Below, one piece after another: positions 50,552 to 62,401 of a stretch of 64,000 bases of DNA. The notes under the pieces were generated by a model that worked only from the letters and a program-made list of their open reading frames with translations, was not told the origin of the DNA and did not search any database. The DNA is from Kiritimatiellia bacterium (GTDB taxonomy: Bacteria; Verrucomicrobiota; Kiritimatiellia; RFP12; UBA1067), in NCBI GenBank assembly GCA_045641465.1, contig JAZUGW010000166.1, positions 691-64,690 on the forward strand, written 5' to 3'. The translations under genes were made by a program, and so were the position numbers. Every line of letters starts with the position of its first letter. The first letter of the stretch is position 1.

Positions 50552-51133
50552 ATGAAATGCGAACTCTGCCATAAGGGTGATGCGCAAGTTGCCATCACCC
50601 TCACCGTCAACGGGAAATCCAAGGAACTTTACGTCTGCAAGGCCTGCGCTGAAAAGAACAAAACCCAGGTACAGGTACCCGGCAAAAAGAAACCCAGCGC
50701 GCATCCGGGGCATCCTCAGCTGTCCGTGATGGGCAAGTCGGCCGACGATCTGCCGCAGCCGCTCGTCGACGGCTTGGTCAAGGCCACGATCGACTTCATG
50801 AAAGGCGTTGCCGAAGTCGAAGAAAACGAACACCGTGTCTGTCCGGTCTGCAAATCGAATTGGGAGAAGATCAAGAACTCGGGTCGTATTCCCTGTCCCA
50901 GCTGCTGGAAAACATTCGCCAAGCAAATTCGCAACGAATTCCTCACAGGCGAATATGCGCTCAACCATGTCGGGTCCGCTCCCGCCGTTTCCAAGCTGTC
51001 GAATGTCGAATCGGTCCGCGCCGTACTTGAACGCGAACTCAAAGACGCCATCGCGCGGGAAGACTACCATGCCGCCGCGAACCTTAAAAAGAAACTTGAC
51101 GCTCTCGACGCCGAAAAGGAGAACCCCGCATGA
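50552..51133 (+). CDS. mcsA: McsA-like ClpC/McsB activator (zinc fingers plus UVR motif)
   Basis: The ATG at 50552 (MKCELCHKGD...) is used; the track ORF is over-extended through the preceding rodZ-like gene. CxxC...CxxC twice (CELC..CKAC; CPVC..CPSC). UVR-like C-terminus YHAAANLKKKLDAL. Confidence 0.7.
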   Translation: MKCELCHKGDAQVAITLTVNGKSKELYVCKACAEKNKTQVQVPGKKKPSAHPGHPQLSVMGKSADDLPQPLVDGLVKATIDFMKGVAEVEENEHRVCPVCKSNWEKIKNSGRIPCPSCWKTFAKQIRNEFLTGEYALNHVGSAPAVSKLSNVESVRAVLERELKDAIAREDYHAAANLKKKLDALDAEKENPA

Positions 51134-51981
51134 GATTTCGTCATAAAGCCGGGGAATATCCCAATCTGCTCGCGCGCGACGTCCTTTCAGGCGGCACCCT
51201 GACGTTGTGGCGGAATCCAGCGGACCAACCATTTGGCGAAAACGACAAATGGGCCTTGACCGCCGGATGGAATTCCACCCAGGACTTCGCCGATGCCTAT
51301 GCGCAACTCGAAGCGGACGAGAAGAAACTCGCCGAGACTCAGACATTTGCCTGGGATACCGACTTCGGGTATCTTTCGCCGGATCCGCTTCACTGCGGAA
51401 CGGGTCTTGGCATCGAGGGCGAGTTCCATCTCGAAGCCCTGCATCTCATCGGCGATCTGCCCCCCGTGCTGAATGCCTTTGAGGCCATGCGCTTCATGAG
51501 TTCAAGCATCGTCGAAGACGGCATCCGCCAGGCGGCCCACATCTTCCGTGTACGGAATCTTGCGACGCTGGGTCTCCCCGAGCGAGAACTGCTCAAGCGG
51601 GCGCATCGTCTCTTCGACGATCTCACCACGCAGGAGCTCAACGCCCGTCGCGCGCTGGTCGAAGATTCGCCGCGCATCATCGAGGATTCGATGTCGCGTG
51701 CGCTTGCCATCCTCCGTTCCGCCCGTCTCCTCGCCCCCGGGGAACTGCTCGACCTGCTTTCGCCGATTCTTCTCGGCACCACGATGGGGTTCATCGACGG
51801 TATCACGCGGTCGGAAACGATCAAGTTGATGCGAACCCAGCTGAATGCGCCGGAAATGCCGTCCAACTCGGCAGAGGACGATCGCAAGCGCGATGCCCGC
51901 GATGCCGCTTTGGCCGATCGGATCAACAAGCGATTTGCCTCCGTGGATTTAAATTCATACGCAGAATCCTGTCTCAACTAA
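51130..51981 (+). CDS. McsB-like protein (ATP:guanido phosphotransferase fold) with degenerate active site
   Basis: 283 aa; the ATG overlaps the mcsA stop. Homologous core FGYLSPDPLHCGTGLGIEGEFHLEAL aligns with McsB [26 protein letters not shown]. The catalytic Cys-Pro-x-Asn signature is replaced by Asp-Pro-Leu-His, and the protein is shorter than canonical ~360-aa McsB. Confidence 0.6.
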   Translation: MRFRHKAGEYPNLLARDVLSGGTLTLWRNPADQPFGENDKWALTAGWNSTQDFADAYAQLEADEKKLAETQTFAWDTDFGYLSPDPLHCGTGLGIEGEFHLEALHLIGDLPPVLNAFEAMRFMSSSIVEDGIRQAAHIFRVRNLATLGLPERELLKRAHRLFDDLTTQELNARRALVEDSPRIIEDSMSRALAILRSARLLAPGELLDLLSPILLGTTMGFIDGITRSETIKLMRTQLNAPEMPSNSAEDDRKRDARDAALADRINKRFASVDLNSYAESCLN

Positions 51982-51993
51982 ATATTCGAAGAA

Positions 51994-54510
51994 ATGAACA
52001 TCGACTACACACCAAATGCAGAACGCGCCCTGGACGGAGCCACTGCCGCCGCGCGCCGTTTCAACCATACCTACATCGGCACAGAACACATTCTCTGCGC
52101 CATCCTTGCAATTCCCAATTGTGAAGCCTGCCGGCGTTTTGTCCGACTTGGCATCGATCCGGAAGAACTCCGTCTTCAGCTCGAGCAGCTGATCGGCCGG
52201 GGAGGAGACGCCCGCGTTCTCGGGGACATCCCCTTCACGCAGCGGACCAAGAAGATCCTCGAACTCGCCAAGATCGAAGCCCAGCACCAGCAGGCCAATC
52301 TGGTCGGCACCGAACACCTCGTTCTCGCCATGCTGCGCGAAGGCGATTCCGCAGGTGCCCAGATTCTTTTCAACCACGACCTGGATGCCGAGAAATATCT
52401 TGCTGCCGGCAAGCCCGTTGAATCTCCAACGCGAGCCAGCGCATCCGACTCGCAGGAGAATCCCGAAGAAGAAGGTACCTCGGAGGATGAGGACAACGGT
52501 CCTGACGGCGGACCTGGCGAGGGCCCGATGCCGCGCAAGAACGGCAAGAGCAAAACGCCGGCGCTGAATGCGTTTGGACGCGACCTCACGGCGCTTGCAC
52601 GCAAAGGCGAGCTTGATCCGGTCATCGGACGCAAAAGCGAACTTCAGCGCATTGTGCAGGTGCTTTCCCGCCGCACGAAAAACAACGCCGTTCTCATCGG
52701 CGAAGCCGGCGTGGGAAAAACCGCCGTCGTCGAAGGTCTTGCACAGGCCATCGTGCTCGGCGATGTGCCGGAGCGGATGCGAGACCGCCGCGTCATCTCG
52801 CTCGACATGGCGCGCGTGGTGGCCGGAACGCAGTACCGCGGACAATTCGAAGAGCGCCTGAAACAGCTGATCGAAGAAACGAAGCGCGTCAAGAACGTCA
52901 TTCTGTTCCTTGACGAAATCCACACGCTCGTCGGCGCCGGGGGATCGGAAGGCGCAATGGATGCCGCCAACATCCTCAAGCCCGCGCTCGCGCGTGGCGA
53001 ACTGCAGGTGGTCGGTGCGACCACGCTCAAGGAATACCACAAGTCGATTGAAAAGGATGCCGCGCTCGAGCGCCGCTTCCAGTCCATCCTCGTCAACGAG
53101 CCTTCGATCGACGACACGGTGGCGATTCTGACCGGCATTGCCTCGCGCTACGAAGAACATCACAATGTGAAGTTCTCGCCCGCCGCCCTTCGTGCGGCCG
53201 TCACACTGACGGCGCGTTATCTGCCTGCGCGGCTTCTGCCGGACAAGGCAATCGACGCCCTCGACGAGACTGGTGCGCGCGTGCGAATGAAGACCGCCGT
53301 GCGTCCGCCGGACTTCAAGGCCGACCAAGACGCCATCGAGGCACTGCATGCCCAGAAGGATGCGGCCGTCAAAGTCAGCAATTTCGAGGAAGCCGCCAGA
53401 CTGCGCGACGCCGAACTCGCCGCACGCCAAGCTCTTGAGGAAAAACTCAAAACCTGGCGGAACGAACATCTGGAAAAGACCATCGACATCACCGAGGACG
53501 ATATCGCCGCGACGGTGGCTTCGATTTCAGGCGTTCCCGTCGAACGCATGACGGAATCGACCGCCGGCAAGCTGCTGACCATCGAGCGCGAACTGAATGC
53601 GTCCGTCATCGGCCAGAACGAGGCCATCGAATCCATCGCCCGCGCGCTTCGCCGTTCGCGTGCAAATCTCGGCGATCCGAAACGTCCGATCGGCTCGTTC
53701 CTGTTCCTCGGTCCCACCGGCGTAGGTAAAACCCTGCTCGCGAAAATGCTGGCCGAGAAGATCTACGGTGATCCGAAGGCCCTGATTCCGCTCGACATGA
53801 CGGAATTCTCGTCAGGTTTCACCAGTTCTCGCCTCGTGGGCGCGCCGCCTGGATATGTGGGCTATGATGAGGGCGGACAGCTCACCGAACGCGTGAGACG
53901 GCGGCCCTATTCCGTCGTTCTCTTCGACGAATTCGAAAAGGCTTCACCCGAAGTGATGAACATGATGCTGCAGTTGCTGGACGACGGCCGTCTGACCGAT
54001 GGCCAGGGACGCCAAGTCGACTTCCGCAACACGATCGTGATCGCCACGGCAAACCTCGGATTCGACTTTGCCCGCGAAGGCAAGTCTTTCGGCTTTTCTC
54101 AGGAAACCGCCCAGACCTCGTACGAGGCGCTCCGTGACAAACTGATGGACGAGGCCAAGCGCACCTTCCGTCCCGAACTGCTCAACCGCTTCGACGAAAC
54201 CGTCGTGTTCAAGAAACTCGGCAAGGACGAAGTCGCGTGCATTCTCGACCTCGAACTCGCCAAATTGCGTGCACGTCTCTCCGAGAAGGATATGACGCTG
54301 GAGCTCGACAAGAAGGCAACCGAATTCCTCTGCGAAAAAGGTTCCGACGATGCAATGGGTGCGCGTCCGCTTCGTCGTGCCGTTCAGCACTGGGTCGAAG
54401 ATCCGCTGGCCGACCTTCTGCTGCGCGACACGCTGGTGCCGGGCCGGATCAAGGTCTCGCTGGACAAGGAAGGAAAGAATCTGACATTCAAGCAATCGAA
54501 GAAAGACTGA
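51994..54510 (+). CDS. clpC: ATP-dependent Clp protease ATP-binding subunit ClpC (class III Hsp100)
   Basis: 838 aa. Two Clp_N repeats, two AAA+ modules (GEAGVGKTA; GPTGVGKT), UVR motif, C-terminal ClpB_D2-small domain. Unusual acidic insertion [23 protein letters not shown] after the N-domain. Confidence 0.95.
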
Positions 54511-54580: not shown

Positions 54581-55522
54581 ATGAAAAAGTTGATGACAGC
54601 ACTTGTCCTATTCGGACTTTCTGTTTCGGTCTATGCGGGAGCACGTGAAGATGGTCTTTTCATCTCCCATGTCCATCGGGGTGGCGGGAAGTTCGAACGT
54701 CCCGACAACACATTGGAAACGTTCCTCTGGTGCTGGGGGAACGGTTCCGCGCTCGAATGCGATTGCCGCTGCACGAAAGACGGTGTCGGTATCATGTTCC
54801 ACGACAACGACTTGCGTCGAACGCCGCGCGGCATTCCCGAGACGTGGAAGACACGCAAGATCAGCGAAATGAACTGGGCCGACATCCGCGATATCGACGT
54901 CGGATCCTATCTCGACGCACAGTATGCCTCCCAGCGCATTCCCACGATCCAAGCGGTGATGGCGGCGATGGCGGGACATCCCTCCTATCTTCTCTTTGTG
55001 GACGAAAAAGGCGCGGGGCCTGCGCGCATTGCCGCTGAAGCACGCAAGGCCGGCGTACTGGACCAAGTCTACTACACAGGCTGCAGCTATCCCAATATCG
55101 TCAAATGGAACGAAGTCGTGCCGGGCGGCAAGTCCTTGCTGTGGATCGGACGGTTTCCGAAATTCAAAGACCGTTTCGACCCGGTCAAACGGGCCAAGAT
55201 GGCGAAAGAGGTCCAGGCGCATTTCGAAAAATACATGGTGGAACTGCGCCAGGCGAACTTCAAGTACGTGAATGCGGTTTCACTGCATACCTACTGGAAT
55301 CCGAAGGACCCTGTCGATCCGTTCATCCTTGGCACGGACTACTTGAAAAAGCTCATCGACGAGTTCCACGCCCATGGCGTCAAGGTCTGCTCGATCCCGT
55401 TTGAAGGCGGCGAAAATGAGGCCTGCTATTATCGCCTTTGGGAACTCGGGTGCGACGGATTCTCAACCGACTATCCTTCCGTGATGTTCAAAGTCATCAA
55501 AAAATTAAAGGTTAAAGATTAA
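54581..55522 (+). CDS. secreted glycerophosphodiester phosphodiesterase (GDPD family)
   Basis: 313 aa. Signal peptide MKKLMTALVLFGLSVSVYAGA. GGAGG Shine-Dalgarno. Catalytic motifs HRGGG...PDNTLETF and LECDCRCTKDGVGIMFHD. Confidence 0.85.
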   Translation: MKKLMTALVLFGLSVSVYAGAREDGLFISHVHRGGGKFERPDNTLETFLWCWGNGSALECDCRCTKDGVGIMFHDNDLRRTPRGIPETWKTRKISEMNWADIRDIDVGSYLDAQYASQRIPTIQAVMAAMAGHPSYLLFVDEKGAGPARIAAEARKAGVLDQVYYTGCSYPNIVKWNEVVPGGKSLLWIGRFPKFKDRFDPVKRAKMAKEVQAHFEKYMVELRQANFKYVNAVSLHTYWNPKDPVDPFILGTDYLKKLIDEFHAHGVKVCSIPFEGGENEACYYRLWELGCDGFSTDYPSVMFKVIKKLKVKD

Positions 55523-56631
55523 AAAGGCCAGAGCCAAAAGGCCGGGTTCTTTTCGAGCCATTCACCCATCGATTGGAGGCGCGAGGGTGGCGTCGTCGAT
55601 TTCTTCTTGGCAGCGGCCAAGCGGATTTCGATCGGTTCAAAACGAGTCGGATACTCGGCCCGCCGTCGAATCTTCTCCGCATAGGCCTCGCTGTAGAAAC
55701 GGCCATCTGCCGTTCGGTCACGACGGGCATTGTAACGCCGCAAGGCTTCCGGCCAACCGTCGAAGAAGCCTTTCGGACGTCGCCAGGCGGCTTGTCCTGA
55801 AGTTCCGAACCCCTTCCGTACAAGAAACATAATCGCCGCACGGACATTGGTCTCAAGTTCCCCTTCATTACGCTTTTCGGGTTTCTTGAGTCCCACATCG
55901 AGTTTGGCCGCGTCCCAGTCCCCCGGCACATTCACCTGGAGCGGATCGCACCACCAAGCCGCCCGCGCCACGGGACCGTTCCCACCGGACTCTTCGATCA
56001 TCATGGATTTGACCAGAGCCGGCGTCAGGTCTGAAATCTTCGCCGTCTGTACGGCGCTACCGCCACACCAAATCTGCTTGTTGGCATTGAAAGCAACAAC
56101 CATCTGAACGATCAGATCGTCGTGCGCCTGATAGCGTGCGTCTTCAAACCCGGCGAACACGGGGATCTCAAGCGGATTGCGAACCTCGGGACGCAAGGCC
56201 AAATCAACGACCTTCTTCTTATTCTTCTTCGGACGCACCCTGAAAATCCGGCGATAATAACGCTCAAGTCTATGAACGACTTTCATCTCGTCGTCCGTGA
56301 CGAAACGACGATCGATCCAGAAGTGTCCCCAGATATCGAAGATGAACGAGTTGCCGCCCGTGTTGATGCGATAGAAATGATTCGCCGCCGAAGGTGGAAC
56401 TTCTGCGATCCCCTTCGCCGCAAGTTTTCTCTTGTGTTCGGCTTCGCGTTTCTGCGCGCGGGCATTGATGTTGATCGCTTCCGAAACGAGCTGCGTGACT
56501 TCAATGATTTCACGCGGCGAAAGTGTCGTCATCTGCGCGGACGAAGACAAGCTCGCGCCACCCAATGCCAGAATGCAGACAAGGGATCGGAAGAAAACTG
56601 ACAGACGTGTACGCACCTTAAACGACGACAT
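55519..56631 (-). CDS. secreted hypothetical protein, possibly lytic-transglycosylase-like (weak SLT-type ES motif)
   Basis: The start was taken at the ATG at 56631 (MSSFKVRTRLSVFFRSLVCILALGGASLSSSAQ signal peptide) rather than the track's 56766, which would overlap the TSCPD gene by ~150 nt. Contains MMIEESGGNGPVARAAWWCDPLQVNV. Domain assignment is weak. Confidence 0.4.
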   Translation of the reverse strand: MSSFKVRTRLSVFFRSLVCILALGGASLSSSAQMTTLSPREIIEVTQLVSEAININARAQKREAEHKRKLAAKGIAEVPPSAANHFYRINTGGNSFIFDIWGHFWIDRRFVTDDEMKVVHRLERYYRRIFRVRPKKNKKKVVDLALRPEVRNPLEIPVFAGFEDARYQAHDDLIVQMVVAFNANKQIWCGGSAVQTAKISDLTPALVKSMMIEESGGNGPVARAAWWCDPLQVNVPGDWDAAKLDVGLKKPEKRNEGELETNVRAAIMFLVRKGFGTSGQAAWRRPKGFFDGWPEALRRYNARRDRTADGRFYSEAYAEKIRRRAEYPTRFEPIEIRLAAAKKKSTTPPSRLQSMGEWLEKNPAFWLWPF

Positions 56632-56878
56632 CCGGCTTGACCGCAATTTCGGCTTCAAGCGCCCGCGCCAGCTGGTCCGGACACGATGTTCCGCCACGGC
56701 AGTTGATGCCCTTGCACAAGGCGATGACATCCTCGACCTTGCGTCCGACCGCCAGACGGGCCACACCTTGCGTATTGCCCGGGCATCCGCCGATAATCTG
56801 ACACGCCGTCAGAATGCCGTCTTTCACTTCATACTGAATTGCCTGTGAACACGTACCACTCGTTCGATAAAGCTTCAT
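56618..56878 (-). CDS. TSCPD-domain small Cys-rich protein
   Basis: 86 aa, MKLYRTSGTCSQAIQYEVKDGILTACQIIGGCPGNTQGVARL...GGTSCPDQLARALEA. It has the eponymous T-S-C-P-D motif and conserved Cys pattern of the TIGR03905-like family. Confidence 0.7.
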   Translation of the reverse strand: MKLYRTSGTCSQAIQYEVKDGILTACQIIGGCPGNTQGVARLAVGRKVEDVIALCKGINCRGGTSCPDQLARALEAEIAVKPDVVV

Positions 56879-56936: not shown

Positions 56937-59900
56937 TTAGGGGTTCTTCTTCGGCGGCTTCGGCGGCAAGGGCGGCAAAAGACGATAGACGAACCCGCGT
57001 GCCAACACGAGATGATCCCACGCGAAGGCCTGATTGTATTCGTTCGCCGGGGTGATCGGCACACGCCATTTCTGCTTCTCGTCTTTCGCAACCGTCCAGA
57101 TTTTCATCTGCGGCTGAATCGTCGGCGGCATCTTCTTGGCAGTCGCCACGACCGTGAAGTTGTTGGACGAAGCCGGAATGACTTTCGGCTTGAACGTAAG
57201 GTAGGCATTATCCTCCAGCGTAATCGGCGCGTTGAATCCATCATGGCGAATGATTTCAAGCGGAATCGGCTGACGCCACCACGGGCGCATCAGAAGACCG
57301 CTCCGCTTGGCATAGATCTCGTAGCGCGGGACAGGCCGGTGGATGCGGAGCGTGTAGAAATAAGTCCCTCCACCCTTCCTCGCTTCGTCCGTCACGCGTG
57401 CGGTATACTTGCCGGGCGCGAGGCGGACTCGTCCAATTGGATCGCACTCCGCCTGAATGACGCTTCCGACATGAACGGTATTCGTCACATCGTCGAAGCG
57501 TGCAATCATCTTGCCGGCCTCATTGAAAACGGTGACGCGTGCATCCAGCGGCAAACCGAGTCGACGCGACAGGAGGTCGAACACATAGACGCCCTCCTTT
57601 TTGATTTCAAACGCATTCGTTACAACGGCGCCGGGTTTCGCCACGCAACCAGAGAACTGCGCCACCACGGCATTCGTCGGTAAGGCATAGTTCGGCAACG
57701 GAGAGAGCGAAAGATAACGCAACTGGGGACGTGCCTTCGCACCTTCTGACACGCGGATCGCATAGACGAAGTCCGCACGTCCCCGATAGAGATTGTCATG
57801 GATCTTCAGCGCATAGTCGCCATCCTTGGGCACGGTAAACGTAAGGACGGAATCGGGATGGAAGAAATAGTCGTCATTAAAAGCGACTTCATGATTGTTG
57901 GTATCGACAATGCTCAACACGGGATTGAAAAAGCCAGGCACCGCATCGCCGATGTAGGGCTGAAACTCGCGGGCGATGGTCTGAAACGTCAGTACACGCC
58001 CCTTCTTCATGTTGGGCAGACGCCATGTATCGGTCGTGCCCGGATAAATCTGGCCGTTCAAAATGCACGGCACATTTTCAACGGCCGGCGGTTCAGGCTG
58101 CTTGCGATGGGGCGGAACGTAGAGCGGCTCTTCAACGACGGGAAGCTTGGTCACGATGATCGGACGCGGCGGAGAAAATCCCGATCCGGCGCCAAGGCGG
58201 AAATCACGTGCACCGAGGGGAGCATTGGTCTCGACCGACAGCGTCACGAGCGCCGCCTGATTGAGCGAGGGCGTCATCTGCAGGGGATTACGCGGCATAA
58301 ACAGCCAGCGTTCCACCTGCTGGATCTGCCGCGCATCGAGTTGTCCCAGCACATTCCACCAGCGGTTGCTGCGCCATTCGTTGTAGTGCTCGTTTTCAAC
58401 CGGCAAGGGAGGTTGGGTGCGATCACCCTGCGCAATCTGGTCGAGCCATTTCACCAAGTACTTGCGCTGATCCCCTGTCGGCACCGGAAAACCCGGCACG
58501 AGCTCGACGTTCAGGACGCGAACGCCCGATCCGCTCACGACGGCCCCCTGGGCACCCCAAAAATACTGTCCGCCGACAAGGACGCGATTCGTCGTACCGG
58601 CCTGTATCGTTGCCGGATAGATGAAACCGACATACGGATCCGCCGCCGAAGCGGAAAGCGCCGTCAGCATCCCAAGACAGACAAGCAGCACGCCCAAAGC
58701 ACGACGGGCCGCATCAAGAGCCACGCGGGCTTTCGCATTCAACACGGTCAGACCGAACCGCTTGAGCGTCTCGTGATAGAGCGCTTCACCCTCGCAGTTG
58801 CCGAAGTCCTTCTTGACCTCCTTCATCGCCGCGACAAGTTCTTCCGTCGGAATCTGATCAATGGACCGCGTCTTCTTCACTTCGCGTACCGGCTTGGCCT
58901 TCAGGGCGGTCACACCAGGCGGCAAGGACGAAGCCGCCGGCTTCGCAGCCGGCGAAGGCTGTTTCGCCGAAGCTTCCTGCGCGATCTGTTCATCACGCGT
59001 TTCCAATGCTTCCAAAAGCGAAAGCAAGGCCCCTTCGGCGCGTTTGCGATCATAAGCCCAGTCCACACTCCACAGACGCGTCACATGCCAGCCGAGCCCC
59101 TTCAGCACCGAGGCGCGCAGCACATCACGATCACGGGTGGTCCGCTGGCTCGCGTAACACGGACCATCGCATTCGATCGCGCACAGATAGCCTTCGCCTT
59201 GACGGCGACGAACGGCCAGATCGATGCGGAAGCTCCCGCAGCCGGCATTTTCGTCCACGGTCCAGCCATGGTTGCGCAACATCGTCGCCACGGCCTGGGG
59301 AAATTCGACGGCAAACGGATCCGTGTTGGCGAGATCGGCTTCAACCGACGACGCGACACCGCCCTTTTCCGCGAATTCAAGGAAACTCTTCAGATGTGCC
59401 GCACCGGTCGCCGACGTGCGGTTGAGGTCGATCTGCGAACCGTGAATGCTTGAGAACACAACGACCTGCTCTTTCGCACGCGTCACGGCGACATTCAACC
59501 GGCGTTCACCGCCATCCCGATTCAACGGACCGAAATTCATCGCGAGTTTGCCGTCCGCATCCGGCGCATAGCCGACGCTGAAGAGGATCACATCGCGTTC
59601 GTCGCCCTGGACGTTTTCGAGATTCTTCACGAAGAACGGTTCGTCCGTATCGTCGCCGAAGAACTTCTCCAACGACGACTCCTTTTCACGCCGTTCTTCG
59701 ATGAGGTCTTCGATCAGCGTCTGCTGCGCCTGGCTGAACGTCACCACGCCCACCGAACGGCGACGATAGCCGGGGGCCGCGAAGTGCGTAAACACGTAGT
59801 CGACGAGCGCTTCCGCCTCCTTGCGGTTCGTCCGCGACGCACGACGTTCGAAGGTACCACCTTCCACGAATTCGAACCGTACGCCGAGACGCGGCGAATC

Positions 59901-62327
59901 GCTCGCAGCAGGGAAGGTATTCAAACGGTCGCCATAGTAGTTATGGTTGCTGAACGAGATCAACGACTCGTGGCGGCTGCGGTAGTGCCAATTGAGGTAG
60001 GCCGAATGGACACCCGCCGCAAGGCATTCATCCAGAATGGATTCCATGTCCGCGACGGATTCATCCTCCTCGTCCTCGACCTCCGCTTCACCCTTCTGGA
60101 AGAAGTTCGTCGGCGGCATCTGCTTCGGATCGCCCACGCAGACGAACTGCTTACCGCGCGCAATGACGCCGATCGCGTCCCACACGGGAATCTGCGAGGC
60201 TTCGTCGAACACCACCAGGTCGAAAGACGCATCGGCCGGCAGATACTGCGCTACCGACAACGGACTCATCAGGAAGCACGGCTTGATGTCCGCCACAAGG
60301 TGCGGGATTTCCGCCAGCAACTGACGAACCGGCTTCTGGCGCGCCTTCTTTTCGCACTCGCGCCGCAGAATGCCGAGTTCGCTCGCCGCCGGACAATCCC
60401 CTCCGCGGCGGCGCGGCAGGCGCGTCGCGAGCTTGGCGAACACCTCGCCCTTGGCAAGTTCCGCCAAGCGCGCATCGAACTCGCGATAGAGTTTCACGCA
60501 GTTGTCGTGGTTGAGGCCGTTGAAGGCATTGAAACGCGGTTCCTCCCGCGTCACGGCATCCAGCATCTTCGCCGCGTAGGCATCGCGGAAGCGTGCGAGG
60601 ATGTCGTCCGGCGCAATCGTCCCCGCCTCGACCGCCCGGGCGAGTCCCGCCAGGCCGGCCTTTTCGGCCAGCTCCTTGGCGCGACGCCAATTCAGCACGC
60701 CGCGAAGTTCGTCGGTCGCCCCCGCAAGTCGTTCGGCGTCTTCGGGTTTCATCTTGAAGGCCTGTCCGAACGGGACGAGCGCACGATGGCGGAAAGCGGT
60801 CAAAACGCGTCCAAAGAAACCCTTACGGCTTCCCTGAACGAGATCTTGCGCCACGGTCGCGACCTCCCGTTCAAAACCGGGGGACCACTCCTGCGCGACC
60901 AGCGGCGCCAACGCGGCAACGGCTTCGGGCGTTGTACCGCGCCACCCGTTCGCGAGCTCCTCGGTGAGCCGTTCGGCCGCTTCATGGTCGGCGCGCGCCT
61001 CGTGCAACGTGTCGATCGAAAGCAGTCCCTCGTCCTTTAAATGGGACTTGCCGGTTTCTTCATCGACGGACGCAATCAGATGCGCAAAGCAGTCGCACGC
61101 GGTGAGTCCGTTCGGATAGATCTTGTGCAGTGCACGCACATAGGCATCAAGTTCCTCGCGCGACGAGGCGAGATTCTGCGACGTCGTCTGCCAGTCGGCA
61201 GGTCCCTGACAGTCCGGCACGTCGAGCGCCTCGGCGAACTGTGCAAGCACCTCGGCCTTGCCGGACTTGTTCGAATGCAGCTCGAGGCAGAAAGGCTTCA
61301 GGCCAATCGACGAGAGACGCCGATGCACCACATCGAGCGCGGCCTTCTTTTCGGAGACGAACAGCACGCGCCGCCCCAGTGCCAGGTTGTGCGCAATCAG
61401 GTTCGTAATCGTCTGGCTCTTACCCGTACCGGGCGGACCGTGCAGCACGAACGTCTTGCCCATCGCGGAATAGAGCACGGCCGTCATCTGGGACGAATCG
61501 GCGCTCAGCGGACAATACACTTTTCCGGGCACGATCTTTTCGCCGATCGCCTCCGGCGGAAAGACCTTGACCCCGTCGTCATACAGACCGCCGCCCTTGA
61601 CAAGATGGTCGACGAGCGGATTCTTCCGCAACTCGTCCATGCGCGTCGTCATGTCCTTCCACATCACGAACTTGCCGAACGAGAACTGTCCGAGTGCGAC
61701 ATCGCGCGTCACGGTCCAGCCCTTCTGTTCAGCCGTCGCCTGAATGAAGGCATCTACGATCGCATTGACATCGACGCCTTTTTCATCAGTCGGCAACGGA
61801 TCGATGTTCGGCACCGTGATACGGAACTCGCTTCTCAGCAGCTCAAGCAGCGTAGCATTCACAACGGTATCGTCGTCAAGCGCCGTCAGGCGAATGTCCT
61901 TCAGCGACTTGCGAACGAGCTTGACCGGCACGAGGATGAGCGGGGCGCGATAGAACTTCGGATCGCTTTCGGAGGGACGCCACGAGAGAAATCCGATCGC
62001 GACGAAGAGCGTGTTCACGCCACCCTCTTCAAGATCCGTCTTCGCCACGCGGAAGAGGTTCTTCAAACGCTTTTGCGTTTCCTCCGGCGTGACATTTGAA
62101 ACGAGGAATCCGTCCTCGGGATCACCCGTCTCGATCGGCACGACCTCTTCAGACGACAAACGGTCCTCAAATGTCGCGATGTCACGGCAGAAAAGCGGTA
62201 GCACCTGCTTGCTGTCGCGGACATTCAGCAGACGATTCCGCAAAGAAAGGTCCAAAAGCTTTTTGGACCATCTGTCGGTTCTTTCACTCATTTCTTTCTT
62301 CTCTTCTCGATTTTTACCAGGTACCAT
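56937..62327 (-). CDS. giant single ORF: DUF4011/Upf1-like SF1 helicase with Vsr-like (DUF559-type) endonuclease and DUF3320-like region, continuing in frame into an RR signal-peptide-like segment plus ~690-aa beta-rich secreted-type domain with two PPC-like modules
   Basis: 1796 aa. DUF4011 signature LLDLSLRNRLLNVRDSKQVLPL. Helicase motifs VLHGPPGTGKSQTITNLIA, DEASQ, VTFSQAQQ, VQGDERDVILFSVGY. Nuclease core RIDLAVRR...GYLCAIECDGPCYASQ...D...LGWHVTRLW. Then ...FGLTVLNAKARVALDAARRALGVLLVCLGMLTALSASA|ADPY... followed by GDYALKIHD...FVYAIRV and GKYTARVTDE...GGGTYFYTLRIHR (PPC-like signatures). Start ambiguity: ATG 62327 (MVPGK) or ATG 62291 (MSERTD). Confidence 0.75.
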   Translation of the reverse strand: MVPGKNREEKKEMSERTDRWSKKLLDLSLRNRLLNVRDSKQVLPLFCRDIATFEDRLSSEEVVPIETGDPEDGFLVSNVTPEETQKRLKNLFRVAKTDLEEGGVNTLFVAIGFLSWRPSESDPKFYRAPLILVPVKLVRKSLKDIRLTALDDDTVVNATLLELLRSEFRITVPNIDPLPTDEKGVDVNAIVDAFIQATAEQKGWTVTRDVALGQFSFGKFVMWKDMTTRMDELRKNPLVDHLVKGGGLYDDGVKVFPPEAIGEKIVPGKVYCPLSADSSQMTAVLYSAMGKTFVLHGPPGTGKSQTITNLIAHNLALGRRVLFVSEKKAALDVVHRRLSSIGLKPFCLELHSNKSGKAEVLAQFAEALDVPDCQGPADWQTTSQNLASSREELDAYVRALHKIYPNGLTACDCFAHLIASVDEETGKSHLKDEGLLSIDTLHEARADHEAAERLTEELANGWRGTTPEAVAALAPLVAQEWSPGFEREVATVAQDLVQGSRKGFFGRVLTAFRHRALVPFGQAFKMKPEDAERLAGATDELRGVLNWRRAKELAEKAGLAGLARAVEAGTIAPDDILARFRDAYAAKMLDAVTREEPRFNAFNGLNHDNCVKLYREFDARLAELAKGEVFAKLATRLPRRRGGDCPAASELGILRRECEKKARQKPVRQLLAEIPHLVADIKPCFLMSPLSVAQYLPADASFDLVVFDEASQIPVWDAIGVIARGKQFVCVGDPKQMPPTNFFQKGEAEVEDEEDESVADMESILDECLAAGVHSAYLNWHYRSRHESLISFSNHNYYGDRLNTFPAASDSPRLGVRFEFVEGGTFERRASRTNRKEAEALVDYVFTHFAAPGYRRRSVGVVTFSQAQQTLIEDLIEERREKESSLEKFFGDDTDEPFFVKNLENVQGDERDVILFSVGYAPDADGKLAMNFGPLNRDGGERRLNVAVTRAKEQVVVFSSIHGSQIDLNRTSATGAAHLKSFLEFAEKGGVASSVEADLANTDPFAVEFPQAVATMLRNHGWTVDENAGCGSFRIDLAVRRRQGEGYLCAIECDGPCYASQRTTRDRDVLRASVLKGLGWHVTRLWSVDWAYDRKRAEGALLSLLEALETRDEQIAQEASAKQPSPAAKPAASSLPPGVTALKAKPVREVKKTRSIDQIPTEELVAAMKEVKKDFGNCEGEALYHETLKRFGLTVLNAKARVALDAARRALGVLLVCLGMLTALSASAADPYVGFIYPATIQAGTTNRVLVGGQYFWGAQGAVVSGSGVRVLNVELVPGFPVPTGDQRKYLVKWLDQIAQGDRTQPPLPVENEHYNEWRSNRWWNVLGQLDARQIQQVERWLFMPRNPLQMTPSLNQAALVTLSVETNAPLGARDFRLGAGSGFSPPRPIIVTKLPVVEEPLYVPPHRKQPEPPAVENVPCILNGQIYPGTTDTWRLPNMKKGRVLTFQTIAREFQPYIGDAVPGFFNPVLSIVDTNNHEVAFNDDYFFHPDSVLTFTVPKDGDYALKIHDNLYRGRADFVYAIRVSEGAKARPQLRYLSLSPLPNYALPTNAVVAQFSGCVAKPGAVVTNAFEIKKEGVYVFDLLSRRLGLPLDARVTVFNEAGKMIARFDDVTNTVHVGSVIQAECDPIGRVRLAPGKYTARVTDEARKGGGTYFYTLRIHRPVPRYEIYAKRSGLLMRPWWRQPIPLEIIRHDGFNAPITLEDNAYLTFKPKVIPASSNNFTVVATAKKMPPTIQPQMKIWTVAKDEKQKWRVPITPANEYNQAFAWDHLVLARGFVYRLLPPLPPKPPKKNP

Positions 62328-62372: not shown

Positions 62373-62401
62373 ATTATACACGATTTAGCCCCCCATGTGA
62401 A
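62373..62401 (-). promoter_or_regulatory. candidate sigma70 promoter (TTCACA-17-TATAAT) for the giant helicase ORF
   Basis: The reverse strand reads gggTTCACAtggggggctaaatcgtgTATAATtatcatc ~45 nt upstream of the ATG at 62327. Confidence 0.5.

What the first reader, a model, noticed from the sequence alone, without database searches (positions are those of the whole stretch)
58650..58760. Internal Tat-like signal peptide with candidate GTG/TTG restart inside the giant ORF
The segment ...KARVALDAARRALGVLLVCLGMLTALSASAADPY... contains in-frame GTG (Val of ARV) and TTG (Leu of VLN) codons a few residues upstream of an n-region with RR, a 17-residue hydrophobic core and an A-x-A-like SASA cleavage site. 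This is exactly what the N-terminus of an exported protein looks like. No strong Shine-Dalgarno precedes it.
Basis: seen in the sequence. Interest (0 to 1): 0.55.

Follow-up and report, generated by a model that had tools for sequence, protein, structure and literature searches.

The report
Export signal buried inside helicase fusion
The hydrophobic segment is a genuine secretion signal of a conserved exported protein, now sitting about 1,200 residues inside a giant protein because a complete helicase gene was fused in frame in front of it; two other assemblies from one related organism carry the same fusion.

Summary
Residues 1199-1228 of the 1,796-aa ORF (56937-62327) form an n/h/c signal peptide ending ASA|ADPY.

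It is homologous to the N-terminal Sec-type signal peptides of a roughly 600-aa Kiritimatiellia exported beta-sandwich protein family. All 90 free-standing relatives scanned start M-(K/R)-hydrophobic-A/G|ADPYVGYIYP.

Upstream lies a complete SF1 helicase-nuclease (DUF4011/AAA_11/AAA_12/MTES_1575; PDC-S37/ProA/Hhe-like). Its closest free-standing relatives stop at ...LDAAFRRK*, exactly where this ORF runs into the hydrophobic core.

The fusion is not an artefact. It recurs in two other assemblies (L008, L009; 74% aa identity to the window). Both halves are under purifying selection (dN/dS 0.06-0.19) and all indels are in frame. A third relative (L003) deleted the helicase in frame but kept its ATG and 18 codons as the new signal n-region.

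"Tat-like" is not supported, because RR is not conserved. No candidate GTG/TTG restart has a Shine-Dalgarno match, a promoter or open mRNA structure.

Most likely the signal works internally in the fusion polypeptide and is cleaved by signal peptidase. This last step is inferred, not shown.

The parts
62373..62401 (-). Promoter-like site (TTCACA-17-TATAAT, 11/12), the only strong one upstream of or within the fusion ORF
   Evidence: A consensus match only. No such site lies between 58700 and 62300 on the minus strand.
62289..62291 (-). Most likely true start codon of the fusion gene (ATG, codon 13 of the mechanical ORF, whose first ATG is at 62325-62327)
   Evidence: ATG AGT GAA is shared with the starts of L008, L009 and L003. 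The -20..+20 mRNA window has MFE 0.0 (z +2.6), the least structured in the whole ORF.
58707..62291 (-). Complete SF1 helicase-nuclease module: DUF4011, AAA_11, AAA_12, MTES_1575 nuclease and a short DUF3320-like tail ending ...LKRFGLTVLNAKARVALDAA
   Evidence: Pfam. NCBIfam ProA 1380.8 bits and Hhe 773.6 bits, both below their cut-offs. PADLOC PDC-S37 1109 bits. The free-standing relative P0310 (1,184 aa) has the same N- and C-termini. The closest relatives end ...LDAAFRRK*.
58701..58712 (-). Fusion junction (codons A1206-R1209). Helicase homology ends here, and the expected stop codon, intergenic spacer and original start codon of the downstream gene are all absent.
   Evidence: DNA alignment with free-standing helicase 3' ends. 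Codon-level comparison of window, L008 and L003. Gapless junction alignment.
58701..58733 (-). Basic stretch K1199-R1209 (KARVALDAARR, net +3). It is the helicase tail and now serves as the n-region / cytoplasmic flank of the signal.
58656..58700 (-). h-region of the signal peptide, A1210-L1224 (ALGVLLVCLGMLTAL)
   Evidence: Highest hydropathy in the ORF. Aligns to the h-regions of family presequences. Predicted as a helix.
58644..58655 (-). c-region S-A-S-A, with the predicted signal peptidase I site between A1228 (58646-58644) and A1229 (58643-58641)
   Evidence: In the family, -1 is A/G/S in 100/108 and -3 is small or aliphatic in 105/108, immediately before the conserved ADPYVG. Cleavage itself is inferred.
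56940..58643 (-). Mature exported protein (568 aa, A1229-P1796): several beta-sandwich domains, some resembling PPC/collagen-binding domains. The stop codon is at 56937-56939.
   Evidence: 445 homologues, the best 120 mostly 560-660 aa stand-alone. AF2 model pLDDT 90.6. Foldseek matches to PPC/collagen-binding domains and the DeCLIC N-terminal domain. dN/dS 0.19 and 0.11.
58668..58745 (-). Span holding the six in-frame start-capable codons (GTG 58745, TTG 58742, GTG 58724, TTG 58697, GTG 58691, ATG 58670; each number is the first base of the codon on the minus strand). These are candidate restart sites without supporting signals.

Best explanation
SHOWN. The segment is the retained h- and c-region of the Sec-type, signal-peptidase-I-type signal peptide of a conserved Kiritimatiellia exported beta-sandwich protein. 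A complete SF1 helicase-nuclease gene was fused in frame onto the 5' end of that gene. The fusion removed the helicase stop codon, the spacer, and the original start codon and n-region. The basic helicase tail (KARVALDAARR) now occupies the n-region position. The fusion is real and inherited, and both halves are kept by purifying selection.

INFERRED. Translation starts at the helicase ATG (62291) and gives one precursor of about 1,784 aa. When the hydrophobic segment emerges from the ribosome, it is targeted to SecYEG (probably via SRP) with N-in/C-out orientation. The 568 C-terminal residues are translocated. Signal peptidase I cuts after A-S-A(1228) and releases the mature protein starting ADPYVGF. 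The helicase stays in the cytoplasm carrying the signal peptide as a C-terminal hydrophobic tail, until or unless membrane proteases remove it. In effect the helicase is a giant n-region of a signal peptide.
For: 1. Homology. 445 relatives of the C-terminal part were found, and the best 120 are mostly 560-660 aa stand-alone proteins. In the 90 scanned, the presequence is 7-34 aa long (median 18) and lies directly before ADPYVGYIYP. The von Heijne -3/-1 pattern holds in at least 93% of 108 members.

2. Helicase completeness. The closest helicases end at ...KARTHLDAAFRRK*, within 2-4 codons of where this ORF enters the hydrophobic core. The free-standing P0310 (1,184 aa) shows that the helicase part is complete at both ends.

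3. Rarity and reality of the fusion. An exhaustive HMMER search with a junction-spanning query found exactly one other cluster spanning the junction among the best 150 hits: P0241, 1,805 aa. That cluster is present in two independent assemblies, L008 (NCBI MAG) and L009 (ENA), which are 99% identical to each other.

4. Selection. Window versus L008: 73.6% aa identity over 1,770 residues. Helicase dN/dS 0.145 (dS 1.17) and exported part 0.187. L008 versus L009: 0.064 and 0.105. Only in-frame indels occur.

5. Synteny. L008/L009 read SecA - 151 aa - BPD_transp_1 - FUSION - GDPD. L003 reads SecA - 158 aa - BPD_transp_1 - 612-aa exported protein - GDPD.

6. Deletion derivative. L003's gene begins ATG AGT GAA... 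(MSECIFGRLQQLLHLSFR), matching helicase codons 1-18 (MSERVVRWSQKLLDLSLR). By my count, 38 of 54 nt are identical. It then joins directly to RTIAAV... This is an in-frame deletion of about 1,183 helicase codons that keeps the helicase start as the only start of the exported protein.

7. No restart signals. No internal promoter-like site. No SD above background. No open mRNA structure at the internal candidates, whereas ATG62291 is the least structured site in the ORF.

8. Signal-like rather than transmembrane-like. The hydrophobic core is 13-15 residues. The 19-mer hydropathy in L008 is only 1.48.

9. Independent precedent in the same family. At least 8 clusters carry DUF1501, which lacks a signal of its own, fused in frame onto the same h/c region with no ATG or GTG at the junction.
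Against: - There are no expression data of any kind. Cleavage, targeting and the identity of the translation start are all inferred.
- Two start-capable codons are shared in position between the lineages (TTG58697/ATG and GTG58691/ATG). A conserved GTG lies at V1195. A restart therefore remains possible.
- Roughly two thirds of the first-ATG starts of long ORFs in this window lack an obvious SD, so its absence is weak evidence.
- The in-frame L003 deletion would occur by chance one time in three.
- The promoter scan covers only sigma-70-type consensus.
- No signal-peptide predictor was available.
- Efficient export directed by a signal 1,200 residues from the N-terminus has, to my knowledge, few bacterial precedents.
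Confidence: 0.55

Rival explanations
1. Internal restart. The exported protein is made separately by initiation at one of the in-frame GTG/TTG codons in the helicase tail (58745, 58742, 58724) or at TTG58697/GTG58691. It then has an ordinary N-terminal signal peptide. The read-through fusion is a by-product.
For: - Six in-frame start-capable codons lie within 34 codons of the cleavage site.
- TTG58697 and GTG58691 align with two ATG codons in L008/L009.
- Starts at 58745, 58742 or 58724 give 27-34-aa presequences with K/R, within the family range of 7-34.
- Many genes in this window lack an SD.
Against: - No SD-like pairing above the ORF background at any candidate start.
- No promoter-like site inside the helicase 3' half.
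- mRNA around the candidates is as structured as the ORF average or more so (z -1.4 to +0.5), while the real start is fully open.
- The two positions shared with L008 give presequences without any K/R, found in 1 of 108 family members.
- V1195 is conserved in free-standing helicases too, so its GTG needs no special explanation.
- L003 makes the protein from the helicase ATG and has ATA/GCG at the 'conserved start' positions.
- DUF1501 fusions of the same family have no ATG or GTG at the junction.
Confidence: 0.25
2. Uncleaved signal-anchor. The polypeptide stays intact as a bitopic membrane protein, with the helicase-nuclease in the cytoplasm, one transmembrane helix and a periplasmic beta-sandwich domain. 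This would physically couple an envelope-facing binding module to a defence-type DNA enzyme.
For: - The fusion is conserved with both halves under selection.
- Positive-inside flank (KARVALDAARR) and an acidic or neutral outside flank.
- The window segment has 19-20 uncharged residues with hydropathy 2.09.
- N-in single-pass proteins with cytoplasmic DNA-binding domains exist, for example ToxR and CadC (from my own knowledge).
Against: - The canonical -3/-1 cleavage motif is kept in all three fused genes (ASA, LQA), directly before the family's conserved mature N-terminus.
- The hydrophobic core in L008/L009 is only about 13 residues, with a 19-mer hydropathy of 1.48, below the usual transmembrane threshold.
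- L003 lost the helicase and kept the exported protein, so the exported part functions on its own.
Confidence: 0.12
3. Tat signal. The RR motif directs the folded downstream protein through the twin-arginine pathway.
For: R1208-R1209 lie immediately before the hydrophobic stretch.
Against: - The sequence is AARRALG, not S/T-R-R-x-F-L-K.
- RR is A-R-T in L008/L009 and F-R-T in L003.
- Only 4 of 90 family presequences have RR (MRR, MVRR or MKRR), in every case directly after the initiator Met.
- The h-region is highly hydrophobic, and the c-region has no basic 'Sec-avoidance' residue.
- The RR position corresponds to the F-R of the helicase tail AAFRRK.
Confidence: 0.03
4. Artefact or decay. The continuous ORF results from a mis-assembly, a sequencing error that hides a stop or frameshift, or a recent pseudogenising deletion.
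For: - The window's own sequence could not be found in the genome or metagenome collections, so its reads cannot be checked.
- The alternative frame has an ATG at 58714 that reads MRPVVLWACCLSVLGC*.
Against: - The same in-frame junction occurs in three independent assemblies, from two lineages separated by dS of about 1.2.
- dN/dS is far below 1 in both halves.
- A single indel cannot restore two separate genes, because the helicase frame would then have no nearby stop.
Confidence: 0.02

Closest known systems
Sec-type (signal peptidase I) N-terminal signal peptides
   Same: Basic n-region, a hydrophobic core of about 14 residues, and A-x-A at -3/-1. It is the positional homologue of the N-terminal signal peptides of the free-standing family members.
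   Different: It lies about 1,200 residues from the N-terminus, behind a folded cytoplasmic helicase-nuclease. Its n-region is the helicase's own C-terminal tail. No start codon with initiation signals precedes it.
Twin-arginine (Tat) signal peptides, including internal Tat signals such as that of the Streptomyces Rieske protein Sco2149 (recalled from memory, not checked here)
   Same: Two consecutive arginines before a hydrophobic stretch, in an internal position.
   Different: No S/T-R-R-x-F-L-K consensus. RR is not conserved in the orthologues. The core is strongly hydrophobic.
Type II (N-in) signal-anchor proteins such as ToxR, CadC and RodZ (own knowledge)
   Same: An N-terminal cytoplasmic nucleic-acid-binding domain, a single hydrophobic segment, and a periplasmic C-terminal domain.
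   Different: The hydrophobic core is short (13-15 residues). It is followed by a conserved cleavage motif and by the mature N-terminus of a family that is otherwise soluble and exported.
DUF4011 SF1 helicase-nuclease proteins listed as anti-phage: PADLOC PDC-S37 and Hhe, NCBIfam ProA
   Same: DUF4011 + AAA_11/AAA_12 + MTES_1575 nuclease + DUF3320-like tail. Strong profile matches: PDC-S37 1109 bits, ProA 1381 bits, Hhe 774/548 bits.
   Different: Below both NCBIfam cut-offs. About 1,200 aa against profiles of 1,550-1,910 positions. No stop codon, so it is fused to an exported protein. In L008/L009 it sits between BPD_transp_1 and GDPD, with a 28-nt gap upstream and a 4-nt overlap downstream, and no defence genes among the genes called on those contigs.
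DUF1501-PPC fusion proteins of the same exported family (P0044, P0057, P0075 and others)
   Same: A large domain without a signal of its own, fused in frame directly onto the retained h/c region and the ADPYVGY mature start.
   Different: A different N-terminal partner: the normal upstream neighbour DUF1501 rather than a helicase. This fusion is much more widespread, with at least 8 clusters and up to 91 member sequences.
Internal signal peptides of viral polyproteins, processed by host signal peptidase (own knowledge)
   Same: One translation product is split by signal peptidase into a cytoplasmic part and a translocated part.
   Different: That is eukaryotic ER machinery and viral genomes. 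Here it is a bacterial chromosomal gene, and processing has not been demonstrated.

Membership tests
Sec/SPase I signal peptide | Positively charged n-region | tested here: met
   K1199, R1201, R1208 and R1209 against D1205, net +3. The residues are supplied by the helicase tail.
Sec/SPase I signal peptide | Hydrophobic h-region of about 7-15 residues | tested here: met
   L1211-L1224 is 14 residues, and the 13-mer hydropathy is 2.47. The family median h-run is 13.
Sec/SPase I signal peptide | Small residues at -3 and -1 before the mature N-terminus | tested here: met
   A-S-A|A in the window. In the family, -1 is A/G/S in 100/108 and -3 is A/V/L/G/S/C/T/I in 105/108.
Sec/SPase I signal peptide | Located at the N-terminus of the translation product | tested here: not met
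   No stop codon upstream for 1,194 codons. No initiation signals at the internal start-capable codons. It works like a signal peptide but is not N-terminal in the ORF.
Sec/SPase I signal peptide | Actual cleavage and export | not testable with these tools
   This needs N-terminal proteomics or reporter fusions. No SignalP-type predictor was available.
Tat signal peptide | S/T-R-R-x-F-L-K consensus | tested here: not met
   The sequence is A-A-R-R-A-L-G.
Tat signal peptide | Twin arginine conserved among orthologues | tested here: not met
   A-R-T in L008/L009, F-R-T in L003, and RR in 4 of 90 family presequences.
Independent downstream gene (restart) | Start codon with a ribosome-binding site or unstructured initiation region | tested here: not met
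   Anti-SD duplex energies are -3.9 to +1.0, against an ORF background of -2.6 +/- 2.6. Folding z-scores are -1.4 to +0.5.
Independent downstream gene (restart) | Own promoter or an upstream stop codon | tested here: not met
   No sigma-70-like site inside the ORF and no in-frame stop. Other promoter types were not covered.
NCBIfam anti-phage ProA (NF058533) / Hhe (NF042953) | Whole-protein score above the curated cut-off | tested here: not met
   ProA 1380.8 against a cut-off of 1500. Hhe 773.6 against 2000. Only the C-terminal two thirds of the profiles are matched.
PADLOC PDC-S37 candidate defence helicase | Profile match | tested here: met
   1109.5 bits, E=0, best-scoring stretch at profile positions 769-1358 of 1550. 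The library has no curated cut-off. A defence function was not tested.
Kiritimatiellia ~600-aa exported PPC-domain protein family (unnamed) | Full-length homology from the ADPYVGYIYP start to the C-terminal AFAWDHL motif | tested here: met
   42-66% identity over 83-99% of the query to the best 120 relatives (over 92% in all but two). 71 invariant columns. A confident multi-beta-sandwich model.

The most novel reading that the evidence does not exclude
The fusion is a functional unit, not a tolerated accident. Either of two forms would qualify.

(a) It is a bacterial 'polyprotein', in which the Sec translocon and signal peptidase split one translation product into a membrane-tail-anchored defence-type helicase-nuclease and a periplasmic protein, made in fixed 1:1 stoichiometry.

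(b) It stays uncleaved and links a periplasmic binding module across the membrane to a cytoplasmic helicase-nuclease. That would be an envelope-sensing DNA-targeting defence protein.

The recurrent DUF1501 fusions would then mean that internal signal peptides behind large cytoplasmic domains are a regular design in Kiritimatiellia.
Probability: 0.3. Interest if true: 0.7.

Novelty: new variant of a known kind. Interest (0 to 1): 0.5.

Why it matters
Gene callers and annotators will report this as one 1,796-aa 'helicase' and miss that its last third is an exported protein with its own signal peptide.

The case shows how to recognise such run-on fusions: compare where free-standing relatives end and begin.

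If the fusion polypeptide really is exported and cleaved from an internal signal 1,200 residues in, it is a natural test case for several questions:
- how late in a nascent chain SRP/Sec targeting and signal peptidase can act in bacteria;
- how a cytoplasmic enzyme can acquire a membrane tail;
- how gene fusion and in-frame deletion can swap the n-region of a signal peptide without loss of function.

It also places a defence-type DUF4011 helicase between transport and envelope-type genes rather than among defence genes.

Tried and rejected
- Exact-match scans for the junction DNA found nothing in genome contigs (50-mer) or metagenome contigs (30-mer). The 1,796-aa product is not on record.

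- The search for related loci in GTDB genomes returned only one relative, at 57% identity and unfused. Its long upstream open frame is a GC-rich chance frame, not a fusion.

- The metagenome scan with a junction alignment returned three unfused relatives.

- The two word-indexed protein searches did not return the 1,805-aa fusion P0241. All hits were under 1,000 aa, so long proteins appear to escape that index. Only the exhaustive search found it.

- A sequencing-error or frameshift explanation was examined. The alternative frame contains ATG58714 (MRPVVLWACCLSVLGC*), but a single indel would leave the helicase without a nearby stop. Three assemblies agree, so this was rejected.

- A TAG-to-TTG stop-loss at 58697 was considered. 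It was rejected because L008 has ATG there, and the resulting native start (GTG58691) would lack any K/R n-region.

- P0027 (MSMGNIWSAWTRNLL...) was tested as a second helicase-deletion derivative. It was rejected because its upstream gene is DUF1501, with an ATGA overlap.

- Pfam DUF3320 was not detected in the tail, and Pfam found no family in the exported part above noise. A PDB sequence search was empty. Foldseek gave only domain-level beta-sandwich/PPC matches and no functional assignment.

- Literature searches for PDC-S37, for Hhe, and for bacterial internal signal peptides gave nothing usable.
Full report
**1. What is in the sequence**

The finding lies on the minus strand, inside the ORF 56937..62327 (1,796 aa). 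Read 5'->3' on that strand, the codons are:

...GGT CTG ACC GTG(58745) TTG(58742) AAT GCG AAA GCC CGC GTG(58724) GCT CTT GAT GCG GCC CGT CGT GCT TTG(58697) GGC GTG(58691) CTG CTT GTC TGT CTT GGG ATG(58670) CTG ACG GCG CTT TCC GCT TCG GCG | GCG(58643) GAT CCG TAT...

This translates to ...GLTVLNAKARVALDAARRALGVLLVCLGMLTALSASA|ADPYVGF.

The segment is the only strongly hydrophobic stretch in the polypeptide: the 19-mer Kyte-Doolittle mean is 2.09, against 1.20 for the next best.

**2. What the two halves are**

*N-terminal part (about 1,205 residues).*
- It is an SF1 helicase-nuclease with DUF4011, AAA_11, AAA_12 and the MTES_1575 restriction-endonuclease-like domain.
- It matches the candidate anti-phage families PADLOC PDC-S37 (1109 bits) and Hhe.
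- It matches NCBIfam ProA (1380.8 bits) and Hhe (773.6 bits), but below their cut-offs of 1500 and 2000.

*C-terminal part (568 residues).*
- It has no Pfam family above noise.
- It has 445 detectable homologues, and those that carry a source name are labelled Kiritimatiellia/Kiritimatiellae. The best 120 are mostly 560-660 aa stand-alone proteins.
- Of the 90 whose N-terminus I could scan, the presequence is 7-34 residues long (median 18), of the form M-(K/R)-hydrophobic stretch. It ends directly before a nearly invariant ADPYVGYIYP.
- K/R occurs in the first 8 residues in 107 of 108 members. Position -1 is A/G/S in 100 of 108, and -3 is small or aliphatic in 105 of 108. This is the classical signal peptidase I pattern.
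- An AlphaFold2 model (pLDDT 90.6) shows one N-terminal helix followed by a chain of beta-sandwich domains. Structural matches are to PPC/collagen-binding domains and similar extracytoplasmic modules.

The segment is the positional homologue of real N-terminal signal peptides.

**3. Where the helicase should have ended**

The closest helicase relatives (63-68% identity, Kiritimatiellae) end ...LYRETLKRFGLTVLTPKARTHLDAAFRRK*. A sister group ends ...LEGVRRF*.

In the window, helicase homology runs to ...KARVALDAA. The DNA alignment breaks there.

A free-standing relative of the same short architecture (P0310, 1,184 aa) has both the same N-terminus (RWTQRLLDLSLRNRLLN) and the same C-terminus.

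The helicase part is therefore complete. What is missing is only:
- its last one to three codons;
- its stop codon;
- the intergenic spacer;
- the start codon and n-region of the downstream gene.

In the relatives the helicase is followed by unrelated genes.

**4. The fusion is real and old**

The window's own sequence is not in the searchable collections.

An exhaustive HMMER search with a 540-aa query spanning the junction found one protein that spans it in a single aligned stretch: P0241, 1,805 aa, 70% identity. Every other hit among the best 150 matched only one side.

P0241 is encoded in an NCBI MAG contig (L008). A 99%-identical copy, P0377 (23 aa differences), is on an independent ENA metagenome contig (L009).

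Window versus L008 gives 73.6% identity in one HSP over 1,770 residues. Nei-Gojobori estimates are:

| Comparison | Part | dN/dS | dS |
|---|---|---|---|
| Window vs L008 | helicase | 0.145 | 1.17 |
| Window vs L008 | exported part | 0.187 | 1.44 |
| L008 vs L009 | helicase | 0.064 | 0.086 |
| L008 vs L009 | exported part | 0.105 | 0.057 |

All indels are in frame.

An assembly chimera, a sequencing error or a recently dead gene is therefore excluded for practical purposes. A single-indel repair would not recreate two genes in any case.

**5. Origin and a revealing derivative**

L008/L009 have the order SecA - 151 aa - BPD_transp_1 - fusion - GDPD. The fusion starts 28 nt after BPD_transp_1, and its stop overlaps the GDPD start.

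L003 encodes the closest 'unfused' homologue, P0001 (612 aa). It has SecA - 158 aa - BPD_transp_1 - P0001 - GDPD, with 82-92% identical neighbours.

P0001 has the longest presequence in the family, at 34 aa. Its first 18 codons are:
- L003: ATG AGT GAA TGC ATT TTC GGT CGG CTG CAA CAG CTT CTG CAC CTG TCC TTT CGT (MSECIFGRLQQLLHLSFR)
- L008 helicase: ATG AGT GAA CGC GTT GTC CGT TGG TCC CAG AAA CTT CTG GAC CTT TCC CTC CGC (MSERVVRWSQKLLDLSLR)

By my count, 38 of 54 nt are identical. After these codons L003 continues ACG ATA GCG..., which matches L008's post-junction ACG ATG GCG....

LLDLSLRNRLLN is native DUF4011 sequence. L003 is therefore an in-frame deletion of about 1,183 helicase codons from a fused ancestor. 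It retains the helicase's initiation region and start codon as the only start of the exported protein.

From the R of the junction to the cleavage site, L003 and L008 align without gaps over 18 residues. On the helicase side the alignment L-D-x-A-x-R is also gapless. This is compatible with recombination at the shared F-R / TTY-CGN microhomology. That origin is only a suggestion.

In the window lineage the neighbourhood has since been rearranged:
- GDPD (88% identical to L008's) is now convergent;
- an extra secreted 415-aa ORF lies in between;
- the upstream BPD_transp_1 gene is replaced by a promoter-like site.

**6. How the exported part is made**

There are three non-exclusive options:
1. 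translation of the whole fusion, with the signal acting internally;
2. an internal restart;
3. an uncleaved signal-anchor.

*Against a restart.*
- No candidate start has anti-SD pairing above the ORF background (-3.9 to +1.0 kcal/mol against a mean of -2.6). Good starts in this window reach -6 to -10.
- No sigma-70-like promoter lies in the helicase 3' half. The only strong one (11/12) is at 62401-62373.
- Local mRNA folding at the candidates is average or stronger than average. ATG62291, the start shared with L008 and L003, is the least structured 40-nt window of the whole ORF.
- The two start-capable positions shared with L008 (TTG/ATG and GVL GTG/ATG) would give presequences without K/R.
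- L003 has ATA and GCG at those positions and uses the helicase ATG.

*Against a stable anchor.*
- The -3/-1 motif and the mature N-terminus are conserved.
- The hydrophobic core is 13-15 residues long. L008's 19-mer hydropathy is 1.48.
- L003 shows that the exported protein works without the helicase.

*For option 1.* The same family has a second, independent and much commoner fusion class. DUF1501 is the usual upstream neighbour and has no signal of its own (L010). In this class it is fused in frame at ...GRLKELYR directly onto the h/c region. At least 8 clusters show this, and the L014 junction has no ATG or GTG.

I therefore favour option 1. The helicase acts as a giant n-region. The segment is inserted N-in/C-out, with the basic KARVALDAARR flank inside. 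The C-terminal 568 residues are translocated, and signal peptidase I cuts after A1228.

Every step after 'the ORF is continuous, conserved and lacks restart signals' is inference.

**7. Tat**

- The motif is AARRALG.
- The first R sits where the helicase tail has F (AAFRRK).
- The orthologues have A-R-T, and L003 has F-R-T.
- Only 4 of 90 family presequences have RR, always as MRR, MVRR or MKRR at the N-terminus.
- The core is highly hydrophobic, with no basic c-region.

The 'Tat-like' label is not supported.

**8. Verdict**

What is really there is a conserved in-frame fusion of a defence-type helicase-nuclease to an exported protein, through the latter's signal peptide. An in-frame helicase-loss derivative exists in a relative.

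This is a new variant of known things (gene fusion, internal signal sequence). It is moderately interesting. The main open question is experimental: is the precursor processed, or is it anchored?

Noticed in passing
L014 4001-6931; proteins P0044, P0057, P0067, P0069, P0072, P0074, P0075, P0076: A second, independent fusion class exists in the same exported family. DUF1501, which has no N-terminal signal, is fused in frame at ...GRLKE(L/I)YR directly onto the retained signal h/c region and the ADPYVGY start. At least 8 clusters show this, one with 91 member sequences. Internal signal peptides behind large domains seem recurrent for this family.
   Followed up: partly
L010 306-4670: The usual unfused context of the family is a three-gene cluster: a PSCyt2/PSD1-like protein with a clear twin-arginine signal (MQLTRRDFLGG), then a DUF1501 protein without any signal, then the exported PPC protein. 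A signal-less DUF1501 next to a Tat-signal partner raises the possibility of hitch-hiker export.
   Followed up: no
L003 7545-9383 (P0001): The 'unfused' closest homologue carries 18 codons of the helicase N-terminus (DUF4011 start) as the n-region of its 34-aa signal peptide. This is the scar of an in-frame deletion of the whole helicase.
   Followed up: yes
window 62249-62269 (-): A perfect 9-bp hairpin (GGTCCAAAA-AGC-TTTTGGACC) starts 22 nt downstream of the likely start ATG62291, inside the codons for WSKKLLD. The scan flagged it as terminator-like. L008 has an imperfect version at the same place. It may modulate translation or be a by-product of the conserved peptide.
   Followed up: no
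window 55519-56766 (-): An ORF between the fusion gene and GDPD has no Pfam or PADLOC match. Its likely real start is MSSFKVRTRLSVFFRSLVCILALGGASLSSSAQ..., which is another signal peptide. The ORF is absent from the L008 and L003 synteny.
   Followed up: partly
window 54581-55522 (+) versus 56937-62327 (-): GDPD is 86-88% identical to the gene immediately downstream of the fusion/exported gene in L003 and L008, but here it is on the opposite strand. BPD_transp_1 and SecA are not found upstream. The locus has been inverted or rearranged at both ends of the fusion gene, which now has its own promoter-like site.
   Followed up: partly
window 58667-58714 (-), alternative frame: An overlapping ATG at 58714 opens a short out-of-frame ORF, MRPVVLWACCLSVLGC*, which also looks like the start of a signal peptide. 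It is most likely a by-product of the T-rich second codon positions and not a gene.
   Followed up: partly
window 51130-54510 (+): An ATP:guanido phosphotransferase (McsB-like) gene lies directly upstream of a ClpC/ClpB-type double-AAA+ chaperone. This is a protein-arginine-kinase/Clp pairing better known from Firmicutes.
   Followed up: no
tool behaviour: The word-indexed homology search returned no protein longer than about 1,000 aa and missed the 1,805-aa fusion at 70% identity. Only the exhaustive representative search found it. Fusions of long proteins may be systematically missed by the indexed search.
   Followed up: no
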